Source: a bacterium (lineage in GTDB: Bacteria > UBA4055). From it: DNA of 64,000 nt. Positions within the stretch are counted from its first letter, which is position 1, and each line of letters starts with the position of its first letter. A model generated the notes under the pieces. That model was not told where the DNA came from. It saw only the letters and a program-made list of their open reading frames with translations, and ran no database searches. Positions 4,745 to 11,417 of the stretch are shown here, in pieces. A program made the translations under genes and the position numbers. The stretch is from NCBI GenBank assembly GCA_029559475.1, contig JAKQBN010000055.1:7089-71088 (forward strand), read 5' to 3'.

Positions 4745-5326
4745 ATGAAGAAAAAAGATAAGTTGAAAATTATGGTATCATCCACTGTTTACGGCAGGGA
4801 GTATGAACTTGAACAAATTTACGCTATACTTACAGGCTATGGTTACGAAGTTATCATGTCTAAGGAAGGTTCGGTTTATCTGCCTGCCGGGGCTTCTATT
4901 CCTGAGTCTTGTCTAAAGGCTGTAGAGGACTGTGATTTGTTTTTGGGTATAATATTCCCTCGTTATGGTTCAGGAATTACTCATCAGGAATTTAAAAAAG
5001 CGATTGAATTGGGTAAACCAAGATGGTTTATTGCTCATCAATATGTGAATTTTGCCAAAAATATATTGGACCAGTATATGTTTAAAAAAGACGGCACTTT
5101 GAACATATCGTTTAAATTTAAAGAAACTTCTATGTTGGATAGTGCCGATATTGTGCACATGTACAATGATGCAGTATTGAATCATTTGAAGCCTGAAGAG
5201 AGAAGATCTAACTGGGTGCATCATTTCTTTAAAACGGATGAGATATTCACTTTTTTGAAGACGCAATTTGAACCTATCGAATCGAGGTGTGCTGAGATAG
5301 AAAAAATAAAGGGAACAAGAAAATGA
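4745..5326 (+). CDS. DUF4062-like protein (TIR / nucleoside deoxyribosyltransferase-like fold)
   Basis: N-terminal pattern KIMVSSTVYG..E...IY..L...GYEV...CL.AVEDCDLFLGII.PRYGSGITHQEF..A.ELGKP resembles the DUF4062 signature. Its stop overlaps the next start (ATGA at 5323-5326). Confidence 0.55.
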   Translation: MKKKDKLKIMVSSTVYGREYELEQIYAILTGYGYEVIMSKEGSVYLPAGASIPESCLKAVEDCDLFLGIIFPRYGSGITHQEFKKAIELGKPRWFIAHQYVNFAKNILDQYMFKKDGTLNISFKFKETSMLDSADIVHMYNDAVLNHLKPEERRSNWVHHFFKTDEIFTFLKTQFEPIESRCAEIEKIKGTRK

Positions 5327-6774
5327 AAGAAAATCAAATAATCCAAAACTTGATTGCCGATGGAGAAAATGAACAGCTTGGATTCAAATCGGATGTTCTC
5401 AAAGATTCAATTGCTAAAATTATTTGCAGTTTTTTGAATTCAAAGGGCGGTACGGTTCTTATCGGTATTGATGATAAAAAAAATATTGTCGGTGTGAAAA
5501 ATGCCGATAAACTTAAAGCTGACCTCGAAAATTATCTTGTTGCTGCCATTGTACCTGAAGCCCCAGTAACAGTTTCTATAGAAAAAATTAACGGTAAAAA
5601 ATTATTGCTATTAAAAGTTTGGGGCGGTTCTAAGCAGCCGTACATTTTTAACGGTAGCATTTATTATCGAAGAGGAAATATTACTCAGAAAGCTACCTCA
5701 AAAGAGATTTCAGACCTGATCCACAACAGATCAATTTCTGAAAAGAACTGGGAAAGGCAGGTATTTACAGAAGTAAGCTTGGAAGATCTTGACAGTAAAT
5801 TAATTATAGAAACGATTAAAGAATCGCATAAGAACAATAAGACTAATTTCACCGGTGATGACATTTTAAAATTCCTTATTCACTACGGGCTGTATGAAAA
5901 CGGTGCTTTTACAAAGGCTTGTGTAGTTCTATTCGCAAAAAATCCTGTAAGGTTTTTACCGCAGATCAGAGTAAGGCTGACCGAATACCCCGAATCTAAA
6001 ACAGATAAAGCATTAATTAGAGACAAGTATTTTGAAGGTAATCTTTTTAGAATAAGAGAAGATATTGAGAAATATATAAATGGCTTAGGAACAAGAAGCG
6101 TTTTTGACAAGAATCAATGGAAACGCATTGATTTTTCTTTCCCGAAAAAAGCTTTGCAGGAAGGCGTGATAAATGCTTTAATACATCGTGATTATTCCAG
6201 CTCGACAAGCGGAGTGGCAATAAGCGTATATCCCGATACTTTTGTTATTTCAAACAGCGGTAAGTTTCCTGATGATATTCAGATAAAAGATTTAAAAAGA
6301 AACCACAGGTCGCATCCTGTTAATCCTGATATTGCCCACATAGTTTATTTGCGGGGATTCATTGATAAACTTGGCAGAGGTACGGTAAAGTTAGTTGAAG
6401 AATGCCGTAGTGCCGGATTGAAGGAACCGGTTTGGAAAGAAACTTCAGAAGGTGTGACTTTGACTTTTCATGGCCCAAAAGCACTTTCAGAGAGAAAGCA
6501 GCAAAATGAGGCTGTAAATGAGGCTGTAAATGAGGCTGTAAAAATAAGATTATGTAAGGAACTTGTTACTATTTATGTTGAAAAAGGAATAGGATTAAAG
6601 GAACTTATGATTAAATTCAATATGTCAAGAGCTACATTGCAGAGAGATATTGCAGTTTTAAAAGAATATAATTTAATAATATTTGCCGGTTCAGCTAAGA
6701 CAGGTGTTTATAAATTAACCGAAGAACTGAAAGGGAAACTTGACAGTGTTCCAGCAGCGGGAAATAAAAGTTAG
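5323..6774 (+). CDS. AlbA_2 (Schlafen-type) / HATPase_c_4 / C-terminal wHTH protein, putative regulator or sensor
   Basis: The N-terminus EQLGFKSD...ICSFLNSKGGTVLIGIDD..NIVGV is typical of AlbA_2 (divergent AAA_4). The central ALQEGVINALIHRDYSS..GVAISVY resembles the RecG-like HATPase_c_4 region. The C-terminal SRATLQRDIAVLKEYNLI is HTH-like. Confidence 0.7.
   Translation: MKENQIIQNLIADGENEQLGFKSDVLKDSIAKIICSFLNSKGGTVLIGIDDKKNIVGVKNADKLKADLENYLVAAIVPEAPVTVSIEKINGKKLLLLKVWGGSKQPYIFNGSIYYRRGNITQKATSKEISDLIHNRSISEKNWERQVFTEVSLEDLDSKLIIETIKESHKNNKTNFTGDDILKFLIHYGLYENGAFTKACVVLFAKNPVRFLPQIRVRLTEYPESKTDKALIRDKYFEGNLFRIREDIEKYINGLGTRSVFDKNQWKRIDFSFPKKALQEGVINALIHRDYSSSTSGVAISVYPDTFVISNSGKFPDDIQIKDLKRNHRSHPVNPDIAHIVYLRGFIDKLGRGTVKLVEECRSAGLKEPVWKETSEGVTLTFHGPKALSERKQQNEAVNEAVNEAVKIRLCKELVTIYVEKGIGLKELMIKFNMSRATLQRDIAVLKEYNLIIFAGSAKTGVYKLTEELKGKLDSVPAAGNKS
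6505..6540 (+). repeat. perfect 12-bp x3 in-frame tandem repeat (aatgaggctgta, encodes NEAV x3)
   Basis: Read directly: 6505-6516, 6517-6528 and 6529-6540 are identical. It lies in the linker before the C-terminal HTH of the 5323-6774 protein. Confidence 0.95.
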
Positions 6775-7263: not shown

Positions 7264-7339
7264 CGCCATTATTTGGCGTTATCACTGTATTATATTACAT
7301 CCGGTATCAAAAGTTGTCTAAACTTAACCGGAGGAAAAA
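7264..7339 (+). promoter_or_regulatory. conserved leader copy A (hairpin cgcca-ttatt-tggcg + tatatt box + RBS)
   Basis: The 17-mer cgccattatttggcgtt (7264-7280) is identical to 11346-11362. Downstream blocks ttatatt / ccgg(t)at / taaact occur in the same order in both copies. It ends in ggagg RBS + ATG 7340. Confidence 0.5.
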
Positions 7340-7612
7340 ATGGAAGATCAGGTAAAAAAAATTGACAGAAGCGTGACTTCACACGCATACATTGAGATCA
7401 GAGACCTGAGGCGGTTCGCGCTTAAAGGGAACAAAATATCGGTATTTGACAACGAAGTGCTTAAGGCTGAATACGAGTTCCAGCTGGAATTCGAGGCCGG
7501 CGGGGCATATCAGAAGATAAATTATGTAATGGCGTGCGGAGGCAAAAGCCTGATAATCAAGCTGACTACAGAAATACCAGACCTCGAGATCGAGGAGTTT
7601 CATATAACATAG
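7340..7612 (+). CDS. hypothetical small protein (first gene of MoxR-VWA module)
   Basis: 90-aa ORF with ggagg RBS, 21 nt upstream of the next ORF on the same strand. Confidence 0.5.
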   Translation: MEDQVKKIDRSVTSHAYIEIRDLRRFALKGNKISVFDNEVLKAEYEFQLEFEAGGAYQKINYVMACGGKSLIIKLTTEIPDLEIEEFHIT

Positions 7613-7633
7613 AAAGCGAGGGAATAACAGAAT

Positions 7634-7927
7634 ATGAAAGTATTACAAAACATTATAGATTATCTTCTGCAGGAGAACAAAATCAAGCAGGATGATTATA
7701 ATTACCTTCAGCAGAAGGGTTTTTATGTCTTAGATTATGATGATCTGGATTTTTATGATGACGGATACTGGCGCATAGTTGAACAGGAAAATGAAGATTA
7801 TTGGAAGTATTATGAGGAAGATTATAATGATATTGAATTTGAGCCTTCTTTAGCAGATAAAAGAAGAAGAAAACAGGGTAGAAGAGCCCGTTTTGAAGGA
7901 CCGAAAAGAATCCGGCGGGCAGCATAA
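7634..7927 (+). CDS. hypothetical small protein, D/E/Y-rich core with basic tail
   Basis: 97-aa ORF. The central DYDDLDFYDDGYWRIVEQENEDYWKYYEEDYNDIEFE is followed by KRRRKQGRRARFEGPKRIRR. Confidence 0.5.
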   Translation: MKVLQNIIDYLLQENKIKQDDYNYLQQKGFYVLDYDDLDFYDDGYWRIVEQENEDYWKYYEEDYNDIEFEPSLADKRRRKQGRRARFEGPKRIRRAA

Positions 7928-7947
7928 ATAAGACTGGAGATAAATTT

Positions 7948-8961
7948 ATGATGGAAACGATCACTTTGAACCAGGCTAAGTCGCTGATCAAGGCTCTGGC
8001 AGCTAAAGAAAGTATATTATTGCTGTCAGCTCCCGGAGTAGGAAAATCAGATATCGTGAGGCAGGCAGCAACTGAAGCGGGTCTTGAATGCCGTTCGCTG
8101 CTCGGAACTCAGATCGCTCCGGAAGATGTGAGCGGAATACCCCGTATAGTAAATGAACGCTCCGTATTTTGTCCTCCTCGGATCTTGTTGCCGGAAGATC
8201 CCAAGCCATTCTGTCTGTTCCTTGATGAATTTCCCGCTGCCGCACCGGATGTCCAGAAAGCACTGTACGCTTTACTTCTTGAACGCCGTCTCGGTGAACA
8301 TTTACTGCCTGAAGGTACATGGGTAGTCGCCGCGGGTAACAGGCAGGAGGACAGAGCGCTTGTACGGCAGATGAGCAGCGCGCTTGTGAACAGGACTTTT
8401 GTCATGCAGGTAAGGGTGGATGTGAAGGAATGGATGATATGGGCGCAAAAGAACAAGGTCAGGCAGGAGATTTTATCGTTTATAGCATTTTTGCCCGAAG
8501 CATTGATGCGTCAGGTACCGGCAGAATCAGTTCCGTTCTCTACACCGAGAGCTTGGGCGTCTTTGTCAAATGCTCTTGATCTTGCGGAAAAAGCCGGAAT
8601 TCTCGACGATGAATTGTTTCGAGCCCTTTGTTTCGGGAGAGTATCGCCTGCCGATGCCGCTATTTTTTGTTCAATCAAAGAAATGAAAATAGATCAGTTC
8701 CTTCCGGCTGAAAAATATGTACTCGATCCTGATATGTTGCCAAAAGAGCATACTTCGCTCTGGTTCCTGCTGAACCTTATACGCAGCAGACTGTTGAAAA
8801 AAACAATTGAATTTGAGCCTGTAGTGATAAATAAGTTTCTTATGAGCCTGCCTCAGGAACAAAGATTTGCGATGTTTGCGGACTCTGTAAAAGAATGGGG
8901 AGAGCTTGGAGCTCAGGAAGCTTTACTTGAATCGCTAAAAGAAATAACGGTGTTATCATAA
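7948..8961 (+). CDS. MoxR-like AAA+ ATPase (AAA_5 type)
   Basis: Walker A LSAPGVGKS, Walker B CLFLDEF, sensor region VVAAGNRQEDRA. The size (337 aa) is typical of the MoxR family. Confidence 0.85.
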   Translation: MMETITLNQAKSLIKALAAKESILLLSAPGVGKSDIVRQAATEAGLECRSLLGTQIAPEDVSGIPRIVNERSVFCPPRILLPEDPKPFCLFLDEFPAAAPDVQKALYALLLERRLGEHLLPEGTWVVAAGNRQEDRALVRQMSSALVNRTFVMQVRVDVKEWMIWAQKNKVRQEILSFIAFLPEALMRQVPAESVPFSTPRAWASLSNALDLAEKAGILDDELFRALCFGRVSPADAAIFCSIKEMKIDQFLPAEKYVLDPDMLPKEHTSLWFLLNLIRSRLLKKTIEFEPVVINKFLMSLPQEQRFAMFADSVKEWGELGAQEALLESLKEITVLS

Positions 8962-8963
8962 AT

Positions 8964-10163
8964 ATTAATGAAAACATACTTCAAGAAGCAAAACAGGCAC
9001 TGCATATTGTCCGCATAACCGTTCCGTATCTTGCCGAACTTGCCGATGCTGTAGAACTTATACCGGATGACAGGATCGAAACCGCAGGTATATTTGCTTC
9101 GGGAAGGCTGATATTTAATCCTGAGTGGTTTGCAAAACTTTCATTAAGAGACAGATCGTTTGTCATTGCGCATGAAATTATGCATCTCGCGCTTAGAACT
9201 CATCACCGGACACTCATTCAGGACAGAGAACTGTTTAATATCACACATGATTTTATAATTAATGAATATCTAAAAGAGTCGTTTGGTCTGACTGAAACTC
9301 CGGCGGACGGCCTTGACTGGCAGACTGAATTCGGACGATATTACGATATAAAAGACAAACCGGCAGAAGAACTTATGAAGTTTATAAAAGACTCTTTCGG
9401 TAAGGAGCTTGATCGAAAAAGGATATACAGGCTGGTTTGCGATGTGTTTTCTGATGAGCTGGAATTAAAATTATTTCCCGGTCTGTCAATTCAAGATCTA
9501 ACTGCAAGAAAAGCAGACATAAATAGCAGATCGTTCAAGGCTATCAGCACCAAACTCATAATTGATAAAGCTGATTTAATCTTCGGAAAGGGTACAACTA
9601 CCGGCGATAATTCAAGTACTTATGATATGATTAGATCATTATATAAACCGCCGTGGGAGGCGGCTTTACAGAGCTGGATTGATTTCGCCATTCGGACAGG
9701 CCATACCTATTCACGCCCGAGCCGAAGAGGACAGAGCGCAGATTATGTTTTGCCCGGATATAAAAGGGAAGGCCATACACTGCATATTCTTGTTGACACA
9801 AGCGGTTCAATGTCAGGCGCACTAGGAATAGTACTGGGCGTAATAGCATCTTTCTGTGATGATCTGCAGGTTGAAAACATTCACATAATTCAATGTGATG
9901 CAGGTGTAAGCGACGACAACTGGTTTACGCCAGATCAATTAAACAGATTTAAGGTAAAAGGGCTCGGAGGAAGCGATATGTCTCCCGGAATGTATCGCCT
10001 GCAAAATGACCCTGAAGTCCAATATGCCCTGATAATTACCGACGGTTATATTGATTATCCGACGATCTCTATGCCATATCAGGTTCTCTGGGTATTGACG
10101 GAACAAAATTGCAGCTTTAAACCGGATTACGGTCAAATCATCAGTTTGCCTGCGTTGAAATAA
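8964..10163 (+). CDS. putative metallopeptidase (DUF2201_N-like, HExxH) + VWA domain protein; start codon unresolved
   Basis: The frame is open from 8931. Translation gives ...PYLAELA...FNPEWF...FVIAHEIMHLALRTHH (HExxH) and a C-terminal VWA MIDAS motif LVDTSGSMSG. No in-frame ATG/GTG/TTG occurs before 9180. The start here is set at ATT 8964 as a placeholder (see finding). Confidence 0.7.
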   Translation: MNENILQEAKQALHIVRITVPYLAELADAVELIPDDRIETAGIFASGRLIFNPEWFAKLSLRDRSFVIAHEIMHLALRTHHRTLIQDRELFNITHDFIINEYLKESFGLTETPADGLDWQTEFGRYYDIKDKPAEELMKFIKDSFGKELDRKRIYRLVCDVFSDELELKLFPGLSIQDLTARKADINSRSFKAISTKLIIDKADLIFGKGTTTGDNSSTYDMIRSLYKPPWEAALQSWIDFAIRTGHTYSRPSRRGQSADYVLPGYKREGHTLHILVDTSGSMSGALGIVLGVIASFCDDLQVENIHIIQCDAGVSDDNWFTPDQLNRFKVKGLGGSDMSPGMYRLQNDPEVQYALIITDGYIDYPTISMPYQVLWVLTEQNCSFKPDYGQIISLPALK

Positions 10164-10166
10164 TTG

Positions 10167-10292
10167 ATGTTGGTGATGACGGCACTGTTCTTCTGCACAG
10201 GCGTTTATGCGTGGAGTTATATCAAGGATTATTCGTCGGGCAAGCGGTTGTATGAGTTCGACGGCGAGTATATCAAAGACTATTCGTCATAA
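10167..10292 (+). CDS. 41-aa ORF with internal YIKDYSS repeat (possible 4-fold beta-flower-like fragment)
   Basis: MLVMTALFFCTGVYAWSYIKDYSSGKRLYEFDGEYIKDYSS. Hydrophobic N-terminus, and YIKDYSS occurs twice. Too short to be confident. Confidence 0.25.
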   Translation: MLVMTALFFCTGVYAWSYIKDYSSGKRLYEFDGEYIKDYSS

Positions 10293-11345: not shown

Positions 11346-11417
11346 CGCCATTATTTGGCGTTGTTCCAATGTTATATTCCGGATATGAATGTTAAACTCA
11401 GAAAAAGGAGAAAAAAT
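11346..11417 (+). promoter_or_regulatory. conserved leader copy B (same hairpin + tatatt box + RBS)
   Basis: Carries the 17-mer identical to 7264-7280 and collinear downstream blocks. It ends in aggag RBS + ATG 11418. The ORF-track start at 11355 falls inside this element. Confidence 0.5.

What the first reader, a model, noticed from the sequence alone, without database searches (positions are those of the whole stretch)
7340..10163. Four-gene MoxR / HExxH-VWA module with two unknown small proteins
Two small ORFs (90 and 97 aa), a MoxR-like AAA+ ATPase and a protein combining a DUF2201_N-type HExxH domain with a VWA MIDAS motif (DTSGS) lie in one tight plus-strand unit. MoxR-VWA pairs are established chaperone-like couples. 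They have also been proposed in comparative genomics (vWA-MoxR ternary systems) to be NTP-dependent conflict systems. The location, between an RM/AlbA_2 block and ORF6N/AAA+ genes, fits an accessory or defence role, but nothing here proves it.
Basis: partly seen in the sequence, partly recalled or inferred. Interest (0 to 1): 0.5.

Follow-up and report, generated by a model that had tools for sequence, protein, structure and literature searches.

The report
Three-gene MoxR, peptidase-VWA and tagged partner
The region holds a real, widely scattered three-gene machine: an ATP-driven MoxR motor, a zinc-peptidase/VWA protein, and a small partner carrying a conserved 31-residue N-terminal tag that I found no description of. 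The fourth small gene is only a neighbour, and a defence role remains plausible but unproven.

Summary
The four ORFs exist as described, and the MoxR and DUF2201_N/DUF2201 assignments hold (HEIMH 9171-9185, DTSGS 9795-9809).

Three corrections:
1. The peptidase-VWA gene has no ATG/GTG/TTG at its true N-terminus. It starts at ATA 8958, overlapping the MoxR stop (ATAA where relatives have ATGA). A 59%-identical relative has the same arrangement, and the 74 upstream codons are under purifying selection.
2. The 90-aa gene is separable. Sister strains carry a 3.4-kb two-gene insert exactly between it and the 97-aa gene, and its 81% homologue sits next to AbiE without MoxR.
3. The 97-aa protein is a genuine third component. 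Its N-terminal two-helix tag recurs at the N-terminus of a same-strand gene beside the pair in 58 of 71 related loci. There it is fused to LCCL, WD40, HEAT, LRR, FGE-sulfatase or unknown domains.

The pair is homologous to phage N4 core genes gp24/gp25, whose function is unknown. It fits none of the four published vWA-MoxR ternary classes and has no PADLOC match.

The local context is defence-like (RM, AlbA_2, PDC-S05, an IetA-like AAA+ gene, and a shared palindromic operator near a WYL regulator). Family-wide neighbourhoods show no defence enrichment.

Verdict: a new variant of a known kind, with an inferred mechanism.

The parts
7264..7300 (+). Palindromic operator CGCCATTATTTGGCG (7264-7278) followed by a TTATATTAC -10-like box. 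It is the promoter/operator unit in front of the 90-aa gene and, in this strain, the only such unit upstream of the MoxR module.
   Evidence: An exact second copy lies at 11346-11360. Further copies precede cassettes in L001, L011/L010, L096 and L004, always about 60 nt before an ATG.
7340..7612 (+). 90-aa ORF of unknown function. It is the first gene of the transcription unit in this strain but not a conserved part of the MoxR system.
   Evidence: Only two protein clusters were found. The 81% homologue lies next to a 75-aa gene plus AbiEi/AbiEii. Sister strains carry an insert between it and the 97-aa gene. It has no homologue in 80 related loci.
7613..7633 (.). Cassette junction. Sister strains carry a 3,364-bp insert here, at about 7616, holding a Metallophos gene, an SMC-like 716-aa gene and a further operator copy.
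   Evidence: blastn breakpoints of L011, L013 and L014 against the window. Junction sequences. Pfam of the inserted genes.
7634..7927 (+). 97-aa partner protein. It has an N-terminal two-helix tag (residues 1-31, 7634-7726), an acidic/aromatic linker (7727-7849) and a basic LADKRRRKQGRRARF... tail (7850-7924).
   Evidence: Homologues lie directly upstream of MoxR in L096, L097 and L018. Eight cluster representatives were found among 1.84 billion proteins. The tag HMM scores E 2e-15 here and this is the only hit in the 64-kb window. The AF2 model gives helices 2-13 and 19-27 at pLDDT 82-88, with the rest at low confidence.
7948..8961 (+). MoxR-type AAA+ ATPase of the N4 gp24 / phrog_1297 family. 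Walker A lies at 8035-8049 and Walker B at 8224-8229.
   Evidence: Pfam AAA_5 scores above its cut-off. phrog_1297 scores 8e-66. It lies directly upstream of the VWA gene in essentially every related locus that holds enough sequence upstream of the VWA gene.
8958..10163 (+). Zincin (DUF2201_N) plus helical linker plus VWA (DUF2201) protein, 401 aa, of the N4 gp25 / phrog_1314 family. The proposed start codon is ATA at 8958-8960, overlapping the MoxR stop. HEIMH lies at 9171-9185 and the MIDAS DTSGS motif at 9795-9809.
   Evidence: Pfam and PHROG at 1.4e-48. Alignment to homologues. ATAA/ATAG here versus ATGA in relatives. 24 synonymous against 23 non-synonymous codon differences upstream of the first canonical start. 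AF2 model with pLDDT 85.8. Foldseek finds MIDAS/VWA domains and selecase.
10167..10292 (+). 41-aa ORF starting 3 nt after the VWA stop. It has a signal-peptide-like N-terminus and a YIKDYSS repeat. Whether it belongs to the module is uncertain.
   Evidence: It is found only in this species and its sister strains. It was not followed up further.

Best explanation
**What it is**

Window 7634-10163 encodes a self-contained three-component MoxR system.
- A MoxR-type AAA+ ATPase (7948-8961).
- A two-domain protein with an N-terminal minimal zincin peptidase and a C-terminal VWA/MIDAS domain (8958-10163).
- A partner protein (7634-7927) recognised by a conserved 31-residue N-terminal two-helix tag.

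**What is shown**
- The three genes co-occur on one strand across phyla.
- In other genomes the tag is fused to protein- or ligand-binding domains: LCCL, WD40, HEAT, LRR, FGE-sulfatase, or unknown helical domains.
- In most non-LCCL members the tag is followed by an acidic stretch and then a basic patch. The window's 97-aa protein is the minimal form: tag, acidic linker and an Arg-rich tail.
- The peptidase-VWA gene starts at AUA overlapping the MoxR stop codon.
- The catalytic HExxH motif, the MIDAS motif and the Walker motifs are all intact.

**What is inferred**
- The tag, or the adjacent acidic segment, docks the partner on the VWA MIDAS site. This resembles the way Rea1/Mdn1 MIDAS binds the N-terminal UBL of its substrates.
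- The MoxR ring uses ATP to remodel or unfold the bound partner.
- The zincin then cleaves it, probably around the conserved E-x-x-L-x-D-x-RRRKQG motif.
- The AUA start implies termination-reinitiation, which would keep the peptidase sub-stoichiometric to the ATPase.

**Biological role in this genome (inferred)**
- In this strain the module is read from the operator-controlled promoter in front of the 90-aa gene. The same operator precedes other cassettes of an island that begins, just left of the window, with a WYL regulator.
- An accessory conflict or defence function, regulated together with the neighbouring cassettes, is therefore the most likely role.
For: **Pair identity and coupling**
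- Searches identify the two proteins.
- One search shows MoxR directly upstream of VWA in nearly all 80 loci, usually with a 4-nt overlap.

**Partner family**
- homologues at 42%, 33% and 35% identity lie directly upstream of MoxR in L096, L097 and L018.
- eight cluster representatives, with M1, I8, L11, L25, K28, G29, E70, L73, R77, R79, K80 and G82 invariant.
- the tag HMM finds one same-strand ORF beside the pair in 58 of 71 main-clade loci, at E 1e-17 to 1e-7 among about 9,000 ORFs. Only one weak hit lies off the strand.
- all 62 hits are on the + strand. 48 lie downstream with a median gap of -3 nt, and 14 lie upstream.

**Independent validation**
- loci fetched after the model was built (L105, L108, L110) all carry tag proteins next to MoxR.
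- the 97-aa protein is the only hit in the whole window.

**Partner domains and structures**
- the C-terminal domains are LCCL, WD40, FGE-sulfatase, HEAT and LRR_5.
- the model has pLDDT 85.8. The VWA domain best matches the MDN1/Rea1 MIDAS-UBL complexes and the N-terminal domain matches selecase.
- the tag is modelled as two helices.

**Start codon**
- Searches support the AUA start.

**Local regulation and context**
- document the operator copies and the WYL genes.
- Searches show the flanking genes: a Type ISP-like methyltransferase, AlbA_2, PDC-S05 and an IetA-like AAA+ protein.
- One search shows AbiL adjacent to the module in L097.
Against: - There is no direct evidence that the tag contacts VWA or MoxR. 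No complex model could be run.
- No cleavage site has been demonstrated.
- The 16 seed sequences of the tag HMM came from the same locus set, so their own scores are circular.
- The ORF calling in the related loci was crude.
- Family-wide neighbourhoods are ordinary metabolic genes with no recurrent defence or mobile-element family.
- About 45 of the 62 tag ORFs are the 128-aa LCCL form. That uniformity does not look like arms-race diversification.
- No classical toxic effector domain is present in the window's module.
- Phage homologues (N4 gp24/gp25 and others) lack a recognisable tag protein in the five phage loci examined. The pair can therefore work without it.
- AUA is a very weak initiator, so the gene could be poorly expressed here.
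- The window's protein lacks about 40 linker residues that are present in most homologues.
Confidence: 0.55

Rival explanations
1. Dedicated housekeeping chaperone or maturation system. As with NorQ/NorD, CbbQ/CbbO or RavA/ViaA, the MoxR-VWA pair would remodel or process one cellular client, here the tag-bearing protein, for assembly, localisation or activation. There would be no role in conflict.
For: - Neighbours of related loci are mostly ordinary metabolic genes, and no defence family recurs (L105, L107 and L110).
- The LCCL partner is uniform at 128 aa and translationally coupled across many Proteobacteria.
- MoxR-VWA pairs are established chaperone couples (Kaur et al. PMC7159879).
Against: - No gene is consistently linked to the module beyond the three components.
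- The distribution is sporadic: at least 477 relatives among 185,579 species representatives.
- The third component swaps between unrelated binding domains, which is unusual for a single-client chaperone.
- The window copy sits in a strain-variable island between defence-type genes.
Confidence: 0.25
2. One reading: a four-gene defence operon in which both small proteins are integral components of a vWA-MoxR ternary conflict system.
For: - In this strain the four genes are contiguous, with gaps of 20-21 nt.
- They share a single upstream operator/promoter.
- The surroundings are defence-like.
Against: - Sister strains carry a 3.4-kb insert between the 90-aa and 97-aa genes, and there the 97-aa gene has its own operator/promoter.
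- The 90-aa homologue occurs with AbiE and without MoxR.
- No 90-aa homologue is found in 80 related loci.
- The defining components of the published ternary classes are absent.
Confidence: 0.07
3. Remnant of a phage module. The pair would be a domesticated or decaying copy of the N4 gp24/gp25-type phage genes, serving virion assembly or phage replication, and the peptidase-VWA gene would be a pseudogene because it lacks a start codon.
For: - PHROG matches at 8e-66 and 1.4e-48.
- 115 phage records carry a homologue, mostly N4-like phages.
- A jumbo-phage MoxR plus metallopeptidase-vWA pair has been proposed as a virion-assembly chaperone (PMC7824862).
- The gene has no ATG/GTG/TTG start and a shortened linker.
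Against: - Identity to phage copies is only 22-31%, whereas bacterial relatives reach 40-63%.
- There are no phage structural, integrase or tRNA genes nearby.
- The 74 codons upstream of the first canonical start show 24 synonymous against 23 non-synonymous changes and 69% amino-acid identity to L096.
- ATA is retained at the position of the ancestral ATG in two lineages.
- All catalytic motifs are intact.
Confidence: 0.08

Closest known systems
Phage N4 gp24 (ATPase) and gp25 (vWFA protein), two of the 14 core genes of N4-like phages (Schitoviridae); PHROGs 1297 and 1314
   Same: The two protein families are the same: an AAA_5/MoxR-type ATPase and a protein with DUF2201_N zincin plus a DUF2201 VWA domain. 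The matches are strong. The function is unknown in phage as well, where they are middle genes (PMC4193335).
   Different: Identity is only about 22-31%. In phages the two genes are often separated by small ORFs, and they lie among nucleotide-metabolism and replication genes. No tag-bearing partner was detected in five phage loci. PHROG and RefSeq label the VWA protein 'HNH endonuclease', which appears to be a mis-annotation.
MoxR plus (N-terminal metallopeptidase-vWA) pair of group 2.2 jumbo phages (Iyer et al. 2021, PMC7824862)
   Same: The two-gene architecture is identical, with the peptidase N-terminal to the vWA domain.
   Different: That pair was proposed to act in virion assembly. No third component was described, and the context was phage rather than chromosome.
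vWA-MoxR ternary conflict systems (Kaur, Burroughs, Iyer, Aravind 2020, PMC7159879): VMAP, iSTAND, FtsH and beta-propeller classes
   Same: The logic is the same: a MoxR-vWA core plus a variable third protein carrying sensor-like repeat domains. A peptidase is linked to the vWA component. The distribution is sporadic, including Planctomycetota and Bacteroidota.
   Different: No VMAP, iSTAND or FtsH component is present. The vWA domain has no C-terminal effector or propeller, and the peptidase is N-terminal. The P-loop is the ordinary GVGKS, not GxxxTAKS. The bpMoxR Pfam score falls below its cut-off. The third component is defined by a different N-terminal tag that Pfam does not cover.
Rea1/Mdn1 (midasin) MIDAS domain binding the N-terminal UBL of Ytm1/Rsa4
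   Same: An AAA_5-type motor is coupled to a MIDAS domain that recognises a small conserved N-terminal module on otherwise different substrates. The best Foldseek matches of the modelled VWA domain are these complexes (8ql1, 6qtb, 6qta).
   Different: Midasin is eukaryotic and a single giant polypeptide with no peptidase. The structural match is modest (TM 0.26 and 0.40, E 4e-5). The analogy for the tag is an inference and was not tested.
NorQ/NorD, CbbQ/CbbO and RavA/ViaA MoxR-VWA chaperone pairs
   Same: An AAA+ MoxR hexamer works with a VWA adaptor that uses its MIDAS site to hold a client. NorQD appears among the fold matches (9qhe).
   Different: Those adaptors lack a peptidase domain and are linked to a defined client operon. 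Here no client operon is linked, and the partner is tagged and variable.

Membership tests
MoxR-type AAA+ ATPase (AAA_5) | Pfam AAA_5 match above the curated cut-off | tested here: met
   27.3 bits against a cut-off of 22. phrog_1297 scores 8e-66.
MoxR-type AAA+ ATPase (AAA_5) | Intact Walker A (GxxGxGK[ST]) and Walker B (hhhhDE) | tested here: met
   GVGKS at 8035-8049 and LFLDEF with DE at 8224-8229, read.
MoxR-type AAA+ ATPase (AAA_5) | Adjacent VWA-domain partner gene | tested here: met
   There is a 4-nt overlap with the VWA gene here. The same adjacency holds in nearly all 80 related loci.
MoxR-type AAA+ ATPase (AAA_5) | Hexameric ring with ATPase and chaperone activity | not testable with these tools
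   This needs biochemistry.
DUF2201_N + DUF2201 (N4 gp25-like zincin-VWA protein) | Both Pfam domains above their cut-offs, in this order | tested here: met
   68.0 bits against 23.2 and 42.3 bits against 26.4. phrog_1314 scores 1.4e-48 over the full length.
DUF2201_N + DUF2201 (N4 gp25-like zincin-VWA protein) | HExxH plus the downstream His, and the MIDAS DxSxS...T/D motif, conserved | tested here: met
   H70, E71, H74, D278, S280, S282 and D360 are invariant and H80 is nearly invariant in 78 sequences, and all are present in the window.
DUF2201_N + DUF2201 (N4 gp25-like zincin-VWA protein) | Complete gene with a canonical start codon | tested here: not met
   No ATG, GTG or TTG occurs before 9180. 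ATA at 8958 replaces the ancestral ATG of ATGA. The frame upstream is under purifying selection.
vWA-MoxR ternary conflict systems (Kaur et al. 2020) | Third component is VMAP, an inactive STAND protein or FtsH | tested here: not met
   The 97-aa and 90-aa proteins have no Pfam match. The neighbours are ORF6N, AAA and AlbA_2.
vWA-MoxR ternary conflict systems (Kaur et al. 2020) | vWA component carries a C-terminal effector domain or a four-bladed beta-propeller | tested here: not met
   The VWA domain ends the protein at residue 399-401.
vWA-MoxR ternary conflict systems (Kaur et al. 2020) | bpMoxR-type ATPase (Pfam PF20030; GxxxTAKS P-loop variant) | tested here: not met
   26.0 bits against a cut-off of 27. 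The P-loop is GVGKS.
Catalogued anti-phage defence systems (PADLOC-DB 2.0) | Any of the module's proteins matches a defence-system model | tested here: not met
   There are no matches for the four proteins. The neighbours do match: pAgo-associated/AlbA_2, PDC-S05 and IetA-like.
Catalogued anti-phage defence systems (PADLOC-DB 2.0) | Experimental protection against phage | not testable with these tools
   This needs a phage challenge of the cloned module.
Tag-bearing partner family (defined here) | N-terminal ~31-36-residue module, consensus MKV[VI]QEL[VI]xYFxRxGxL[ST]xxQLRxLLDQG[FY]L, starting at Met1 | tested here: met
   The window's 97-aa protein scores E 2e-15 and is the only hit in the window. 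Consensus.
Tag-bearing partner family (defined here) | Encoded on the same strand, directly beside a MoxR + DUF2201 pair | tested here: met
   The gap to MoxR is 20 nt here. The same holds in 58 of 71 main-clade loci plus L105, L108 and L110.
Tag-bearing partner family (defined here) | Physical binding of the tag to the VWA or MoxR protein | not testable with these tools
   No multimer prediction or experiment was available.

The most novel reading that the evidence does not exclude
The MoxR/zincin-VWA pair, including the long-unexplained N4 phage core genes gp24/gp25, would be a general ATP-gated proteolytic switch that acts on proteins addressed to it by a portable N-terminal two-helix tag. 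In bacteria the tag would couple diverse sensor domains (WD40, LRR, HEAT, FGE-sulfatase, LCCL) to the machine, forming a fifth, undescribed class of vWA-MoxR ternary conflict systems. In the minimal form seen here, cleavage at the conserved RRRKQG motif would separate an acidic masking segment from an Arg-rich peptide, and that peptide would be the effector.
Probability: 0.2. Interest if true: 0.75.

Novelty: new variant of a known kind. Interest (0 to 1): 0.55.

Why it matters
- MoxR-VWA pairs are widespread, but the DUF2201 branch has no known function, even though it supplies two of the 14 core genes of N4-like phages.
- A conserved, recognisable third partner gives the first concrete handle on what the machine acts on. 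The tag defines candidate substrates or adaptors in hundreds of genomes, and it suggests simple experiments: binding, cleavage and phage challenge.
- The AUA start overlapping the upstream stop is a clean natural example of non-canonical, coupled initiation. Standard gene callers get it wrong, truncating the peptidase through its active site.
- The shared palindromic operator points to co-regulation of several cassettes in a WYL-headed island.

Tried and rejected
1. **Assembly error or 1-nt frameshift at the VWA start.** An out-of-frame ATG lies at 8968. Rejected because the junction is identical in three independent assemblies and five sister contigs, and because L096 has the same ATA-over-stop arrangement.
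2. **Pseudogene.** Rejected on purifying selection and intact motifs.
3. **Membership of the beta-propeller 'bpMoxR' ternary class**, suggested by a near-threshold Pfam hit. Rejected after reading its definition.
4. **PADLOC and NCBIfam.** PADLOC has no match for the module's proteins. NCBIfam gives only a 17.8-bit match of the 90-aa protein to ribosomal protein L16, far below its 295-bit cut-off.
5. **Sequence search of the PDB.** It returned only selecase for the peptidase domain and generic AAA proteins for MoxR.
6. **Scans for relatives of the 97-aa protein.**
   - The viral-contig scan and the metagenome-contig scan found none. An earlier attempt failed for lack of a conserved stretch.
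   - The second metagenome scan, with MoxR, gave three short loci with no tag hit.
7. **Plasmid search.** It found only distant relatives, below 32% identity, in 32 of 72,556 records.
8. **Consensus promoter and terminator scan.** The counts were no better than the shuffles.
9. **Neighbour census for defence enrichment.** It found none. The first attempt exceeded the residue limit.
10. **First clustering of neighbours.** It was muddied by shadow ORFs in high-GC loci.
11. **Literature searches.** DUF2201, LCCL+MoxR and MoxR+vWA+anti-phage turned up no description of the tag or of a three-gene DUF2201 system. This is absence from the held library only.
12. **First translation of the small ORF after the VWA gene.** I used the wrong frame and corrected it.


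Full report
**1. The observation**

The window is a bacterial chromosome segment. The same sequence occurs in a MAG labelled 'Clostridiales bacterium' (GCA_035422465.1) and in two independent metagenome assemblies.

- From about 13.1 kb onward the genes are housekeeping: an Rsm22-like methyltransferase, KpsF-like SIS/CBS, MutS, CTP synthase, FolC and Rho.
- Before that lies an accessory island. It holds DUF7663, a Type ISP-like methyltransferase, DUF4062, AlbA_2/Schlafen, a 143-aa gene on the minus strand, the four genes of the finding, an ORF6N protein matching PADLOC candidate PDC-S05, and an IetA-like AAA+ protein.
- The MoxR assignment holds (AAA_5 above its cut-off, phrog_1297 at 8e-66). 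So does the DUF2201_N + DUF2201 assignment (68 and 42 bits, phrog_1314 at 1.4e-48).
- HEIMH (9171-9185), DTSGS (9795-9809) and the Walker A and B motifs can be read directly from the sequence.

**2. The peptidase-VWA gene starts at AUA**

- The mechanical ORF begins at 9180, which is the Met inside HEIMH. Homologues are 410-460 aa, and their N-termini align with window codons from about 8958-8970.
- That frame is open from 8931 but contains no ATG, GTG or TTG.
- I first suspected a lost base in an A-run, because an out-of-frame ATG sits at 8968. The junction, however, is identical in three independent assemblies and in five sister-strain contigs that differ by 2-4% elsewhere.
- In relatives (L017, L018, L097) the VWA start ATG overlaps the MoxR stop as ATGA. 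The window has ATAA at exactly that place. The closest diverged relative, L096 (59% protein identity), has ATAG.
- Between this ATA and the first canonical start there are 74 codons. Compared with L096, 27 are identical, 24 differ synonymously and 23 differ non-synonymously. Amino-acid identity is 69%, higher than for the rest of the protein.
- The region is therefore translated in both lineages. The simplest reading is initiation at AUA by ribosomes terminating on the overlapping MoxR stop. That is an inference.
- Gene callers truncate the protein through its active site (327 aa).
- The AF2 model built from 78 homologues is confident (pLDDT 85.8). It shows an N-terminal helical zincin, a long helical linker and a compact VWA domain.
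- By Foldseek, the VWA part matches MIDAS domains best, with the MDN1/Rea1 MIDAS-UBL complexes on top. The N-terminal part matches the minimal gluzincin selecase.

**3. The 90-aa gene is a neighbour, not a component**

- It has only two protein clusters in 5.8 billion.
- Its 81%-identical homologue lies in another organism, in front of a 75-aa gene and AbiEi/AbiEii, with no MoxR.
- In sister strains of the window organism, a 3,364-bp block is inserted at window position 7616, exactly between the 90-aa stop and the 97-aa start. The block holds a Metallophos gene and an SMC-like 716-aa gene.
- None of 80 related MoxR/VWA loci holds a homologue.

**4. The 97-aa protein is the conserved third component**

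- A k-mer-limited search found only itself. An exhaustive phmmer search against 1.84 billion representatives found eight clusters. These are short forms (95-101 aa) and long forms (233-287 aa).
- They share three features: an N-terminal MKV[IL]xEIIxYL...L...KG[FY]Y module, an acidic/aromatic stretch, and an invariant E-x-x-L-x-D-x-RRRKQG motif.
- Where context is available, these proteins lie directly upstream of MoxR (L096, L097, L018).
- A profile of the family then gave weak but strangely consistent hits to same-strand ORFs flanking the pair in distant phyla. The match was always to the first ~35 residues.
- A profile of that module alone finds one plus-strand ORF beside the pair in 58 of the 71 main-clade loci, at E 1e-17 to 1e-7 among about 9,000 ORFs. 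Only one weak hit is off-strand, and it is itself a plausible second copy.
- Most misses are contigs cut at the relevant side.
- All 62 hits are co-oriented. 48 lie downstream of VWA with a median gap of -3 nt, and 14 lie upstream of MoxR.
- The 16 seed sequences are circular evidence. More than 40 non-seed hits are not. Nor are three loci fetched only afterwards (L105, L108, L110), all of which carry tag proteins next to MoxR.
- In the whole 64-kb window the 97-aa protein is the only hit.
- The module always starts at Met1. It is modelled as two short helices at pLDDT 82-88, with the rest of the 97-aa protein at low confidence.

**5. What the tag is attached to**

- Behind the tag, Pfam recognises several domains:
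  - LCCL, in the recurrent 128-aa form in Proteobacteria and Acidobacteriota
  - a WD40 propeller (919 aa)
  - FGE-sulfatase
  - HEAT repeats
  - BspA-type LRR
- In other members Pfam recognises nothing.
- Most non-LCCL members repeat the pattern of tag, acidic stretch and basic patch.
- One Leptospiraceae locus has two tag paralogues flanking a Fic gene.
- The window's protein is the minimal form, with no domain after the basic tail.
- Pfam, PADLOC and PHROGs do not cover the tag, and NCBIfam gave the 97-aa protein no match.
- I found no paper that describes the tag. That is absence from the held library, not proof of novelty.

**6. Comparison with what is known**

- The pair is homologous to N4 gp24/gp25, two of the 14 core genes of N4-like phages. 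They are middle genes of unknown function.
- The architecture 'MoxR plus N-terminal metallopeptidase-vWA' was noted in jumbo phages and proposed there as a virion-assembly chaperone.
- The four vWA-MoxR ternary conflict systems of Kaur et al. are defined by VMAP, iSTAND, FtsH or a propeller-bearing vWA. None of these features is present, and the bpMoxR Pfam score is below its cut-off.
- The system is therefore not a member of those classes, but it follows the same three-part logic with a different third component.
- The five phage loci I examined have no recognisable tag protein.

**7. Role**

*Evidence for a conflict or defence role in this lineage*
- The module sits in a strain-variable island between RM-like, AlbA_2, PDC-S05 and IetA-like genes.
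- The close relative L097 has AbiL immediately upstream.
- L096 lies among WYL and DUF1016 genes.
- A 15-nt palindrome, CGCCATTAT[T/G]TGGCG, followed by a -10-like box, precedes the 90-aa gene, the IetA-like gene and, in sister strains, the 97-aa gene itself. It also lies immediately after a WYL-domain gene in both L001 and L096, whose WYL proteins are 45% identical.
- A one-base variant of the palindrome precedes three successive genes in L004.
- This looks like a shared operator, possibly for the WYL regulator. That is an inference, by analogy with BrxR/CapW-type regulators, which I cite from my own knowledge.

*Evidence against generalising this*
- Among 128 neighbours of related loci, no family recurs in more than three.
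- The commonest families are oxidoreductases, ABC transporters and the like. PADLOC matches are few and generic.
- L105, L107 and L110 sit among ordinary genes.
- Plasmids carry only distant relatives.
- A defence role is therefore plausible here but not established for the family.

**8. Mechanism**

*Shown*
- The three genes are co-conserved.
- The catalytic, MIDAS and Walker motifs are intact.
- The genes are translationally coupled.
- The tag sits at the extreme N-terminus of otherwise different proteins.

*Inferred*
- The MIDAS site captures the partner through the tag or the neighbouring acidic motif.
- MoxR remodels the partner with ATP.
- The zincin cleaves it.

For the minimal partner, the only parts that could carry a function are the acidic segment and the Arg-rich tail. 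Proteolytic unmasking of the tail is a speculative but testable idea.

**9. Verdict**

- The real unit is a three-gene system (7634-10163). It has a non-canonical start and a partner family that is, as far as I could find, undescribed. The 90-aa gene is an unrelated island cassette that happens to supply the promoter in this strain.
- It is a new variant of a known kind. Interest is moderate, limited by the lack of any functional test.

Noticed in passing
window 7264-7278 and 11346-11360; also L001:1579-1593, L011:4799-4813, L010:1588-1602, L096:2950-2964 and 5018-5032, L004:370, 1159, 1653: A 15-nt palindrome, CGCCATTAT[T/G]TGGCG (CGCCGTTATNTGGCG in L004), is followed about 11 nt later by TTATATTAC and about 40 nt later by GGAG..ATG. 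It precedes successive plus-strand cassettes in these islands. It also lies directly after a WYL-domain gene in two organisms whose WYL proteins are 45% identical. It looks like an island-wide operator/promoter unit, possibly a WYL regulon.
   Followed up: partly
window ~7616 (compare L011:1489-4852, L013, L014): Sister strains, 96-98% identical in the flanks, carry a 3,364-bp insert between the 90-aa and 97-aa genes. It holds a Metallophos (354 aa) gene, an SMC-like (716 aa) gene resembling SbcCD, and another operator copy. In those strains the MoxR module has its own operator/promoter. The insert's proteins have no PADLOC match.
   Followed up: partly
window 10167-10292 (+): A 41-aa ORF starts 3 nt after the VWA stop: MLVMTALFFCTGVYAWSYIKDYSSGKRLYEFDGEYIKDYSS. 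It has a signal-peptide-like N-terminus and a duplicated YIKDYSS motif. It is found only in this species and its sister strains.
   Followed up: partly
L034:5878-6879, L045:3303-4379, L073:5969-6955: In several Planctomycetota loci a second MoxR paralogue next to the pair carries a C-terminal extension that resembles the RNA polymerase alpha C-terminal (helix-hairpin-helix) domain, for example LSVRAVNCLESDGVTTVRDLV...LLQIRHFGE. This was judged by eye only.
   Followed up: no
L108:639-5971: A Leptospiraceae locus has two tag-bearing paralogues (743 and 782 aa) flanking a Fic-domain gene directly upstream of MoxR-VWA. An MNT-HEPN pair lies just downstream. The Fic gene is a possible effector-bearing variant of the system.
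   Followed up: no
phage records under hits H4-H30 (for example NC_023556.1 gp36): RefSeq/PHROG annotation calls the DUF2201_N/VWA protein of N4-like phages an 'HNH endonuclease'. The domain content (zincin HExxH plus VWA) does not support that name.
   Followed up: partly
window 5323-6774 versus L001:7240-8827: The AlbA_2/HATPase_c_4 gene is one 483-aa ORF in the window. It is called as two genes (396 + 98 aa) in the NCBI MAG and as 515 aa in the JGI contig. This suggests strain or assembly differences at its 3' end, which contains an NEAV repeat.
   Followed up: no
L087-L095: A distant clade, about 30% identical, has VWA proteins of about 600 aa that are also paired with MoxR. It shows no tag protein and may be a separate sub-family with a different third component or none.
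   Followed up: no
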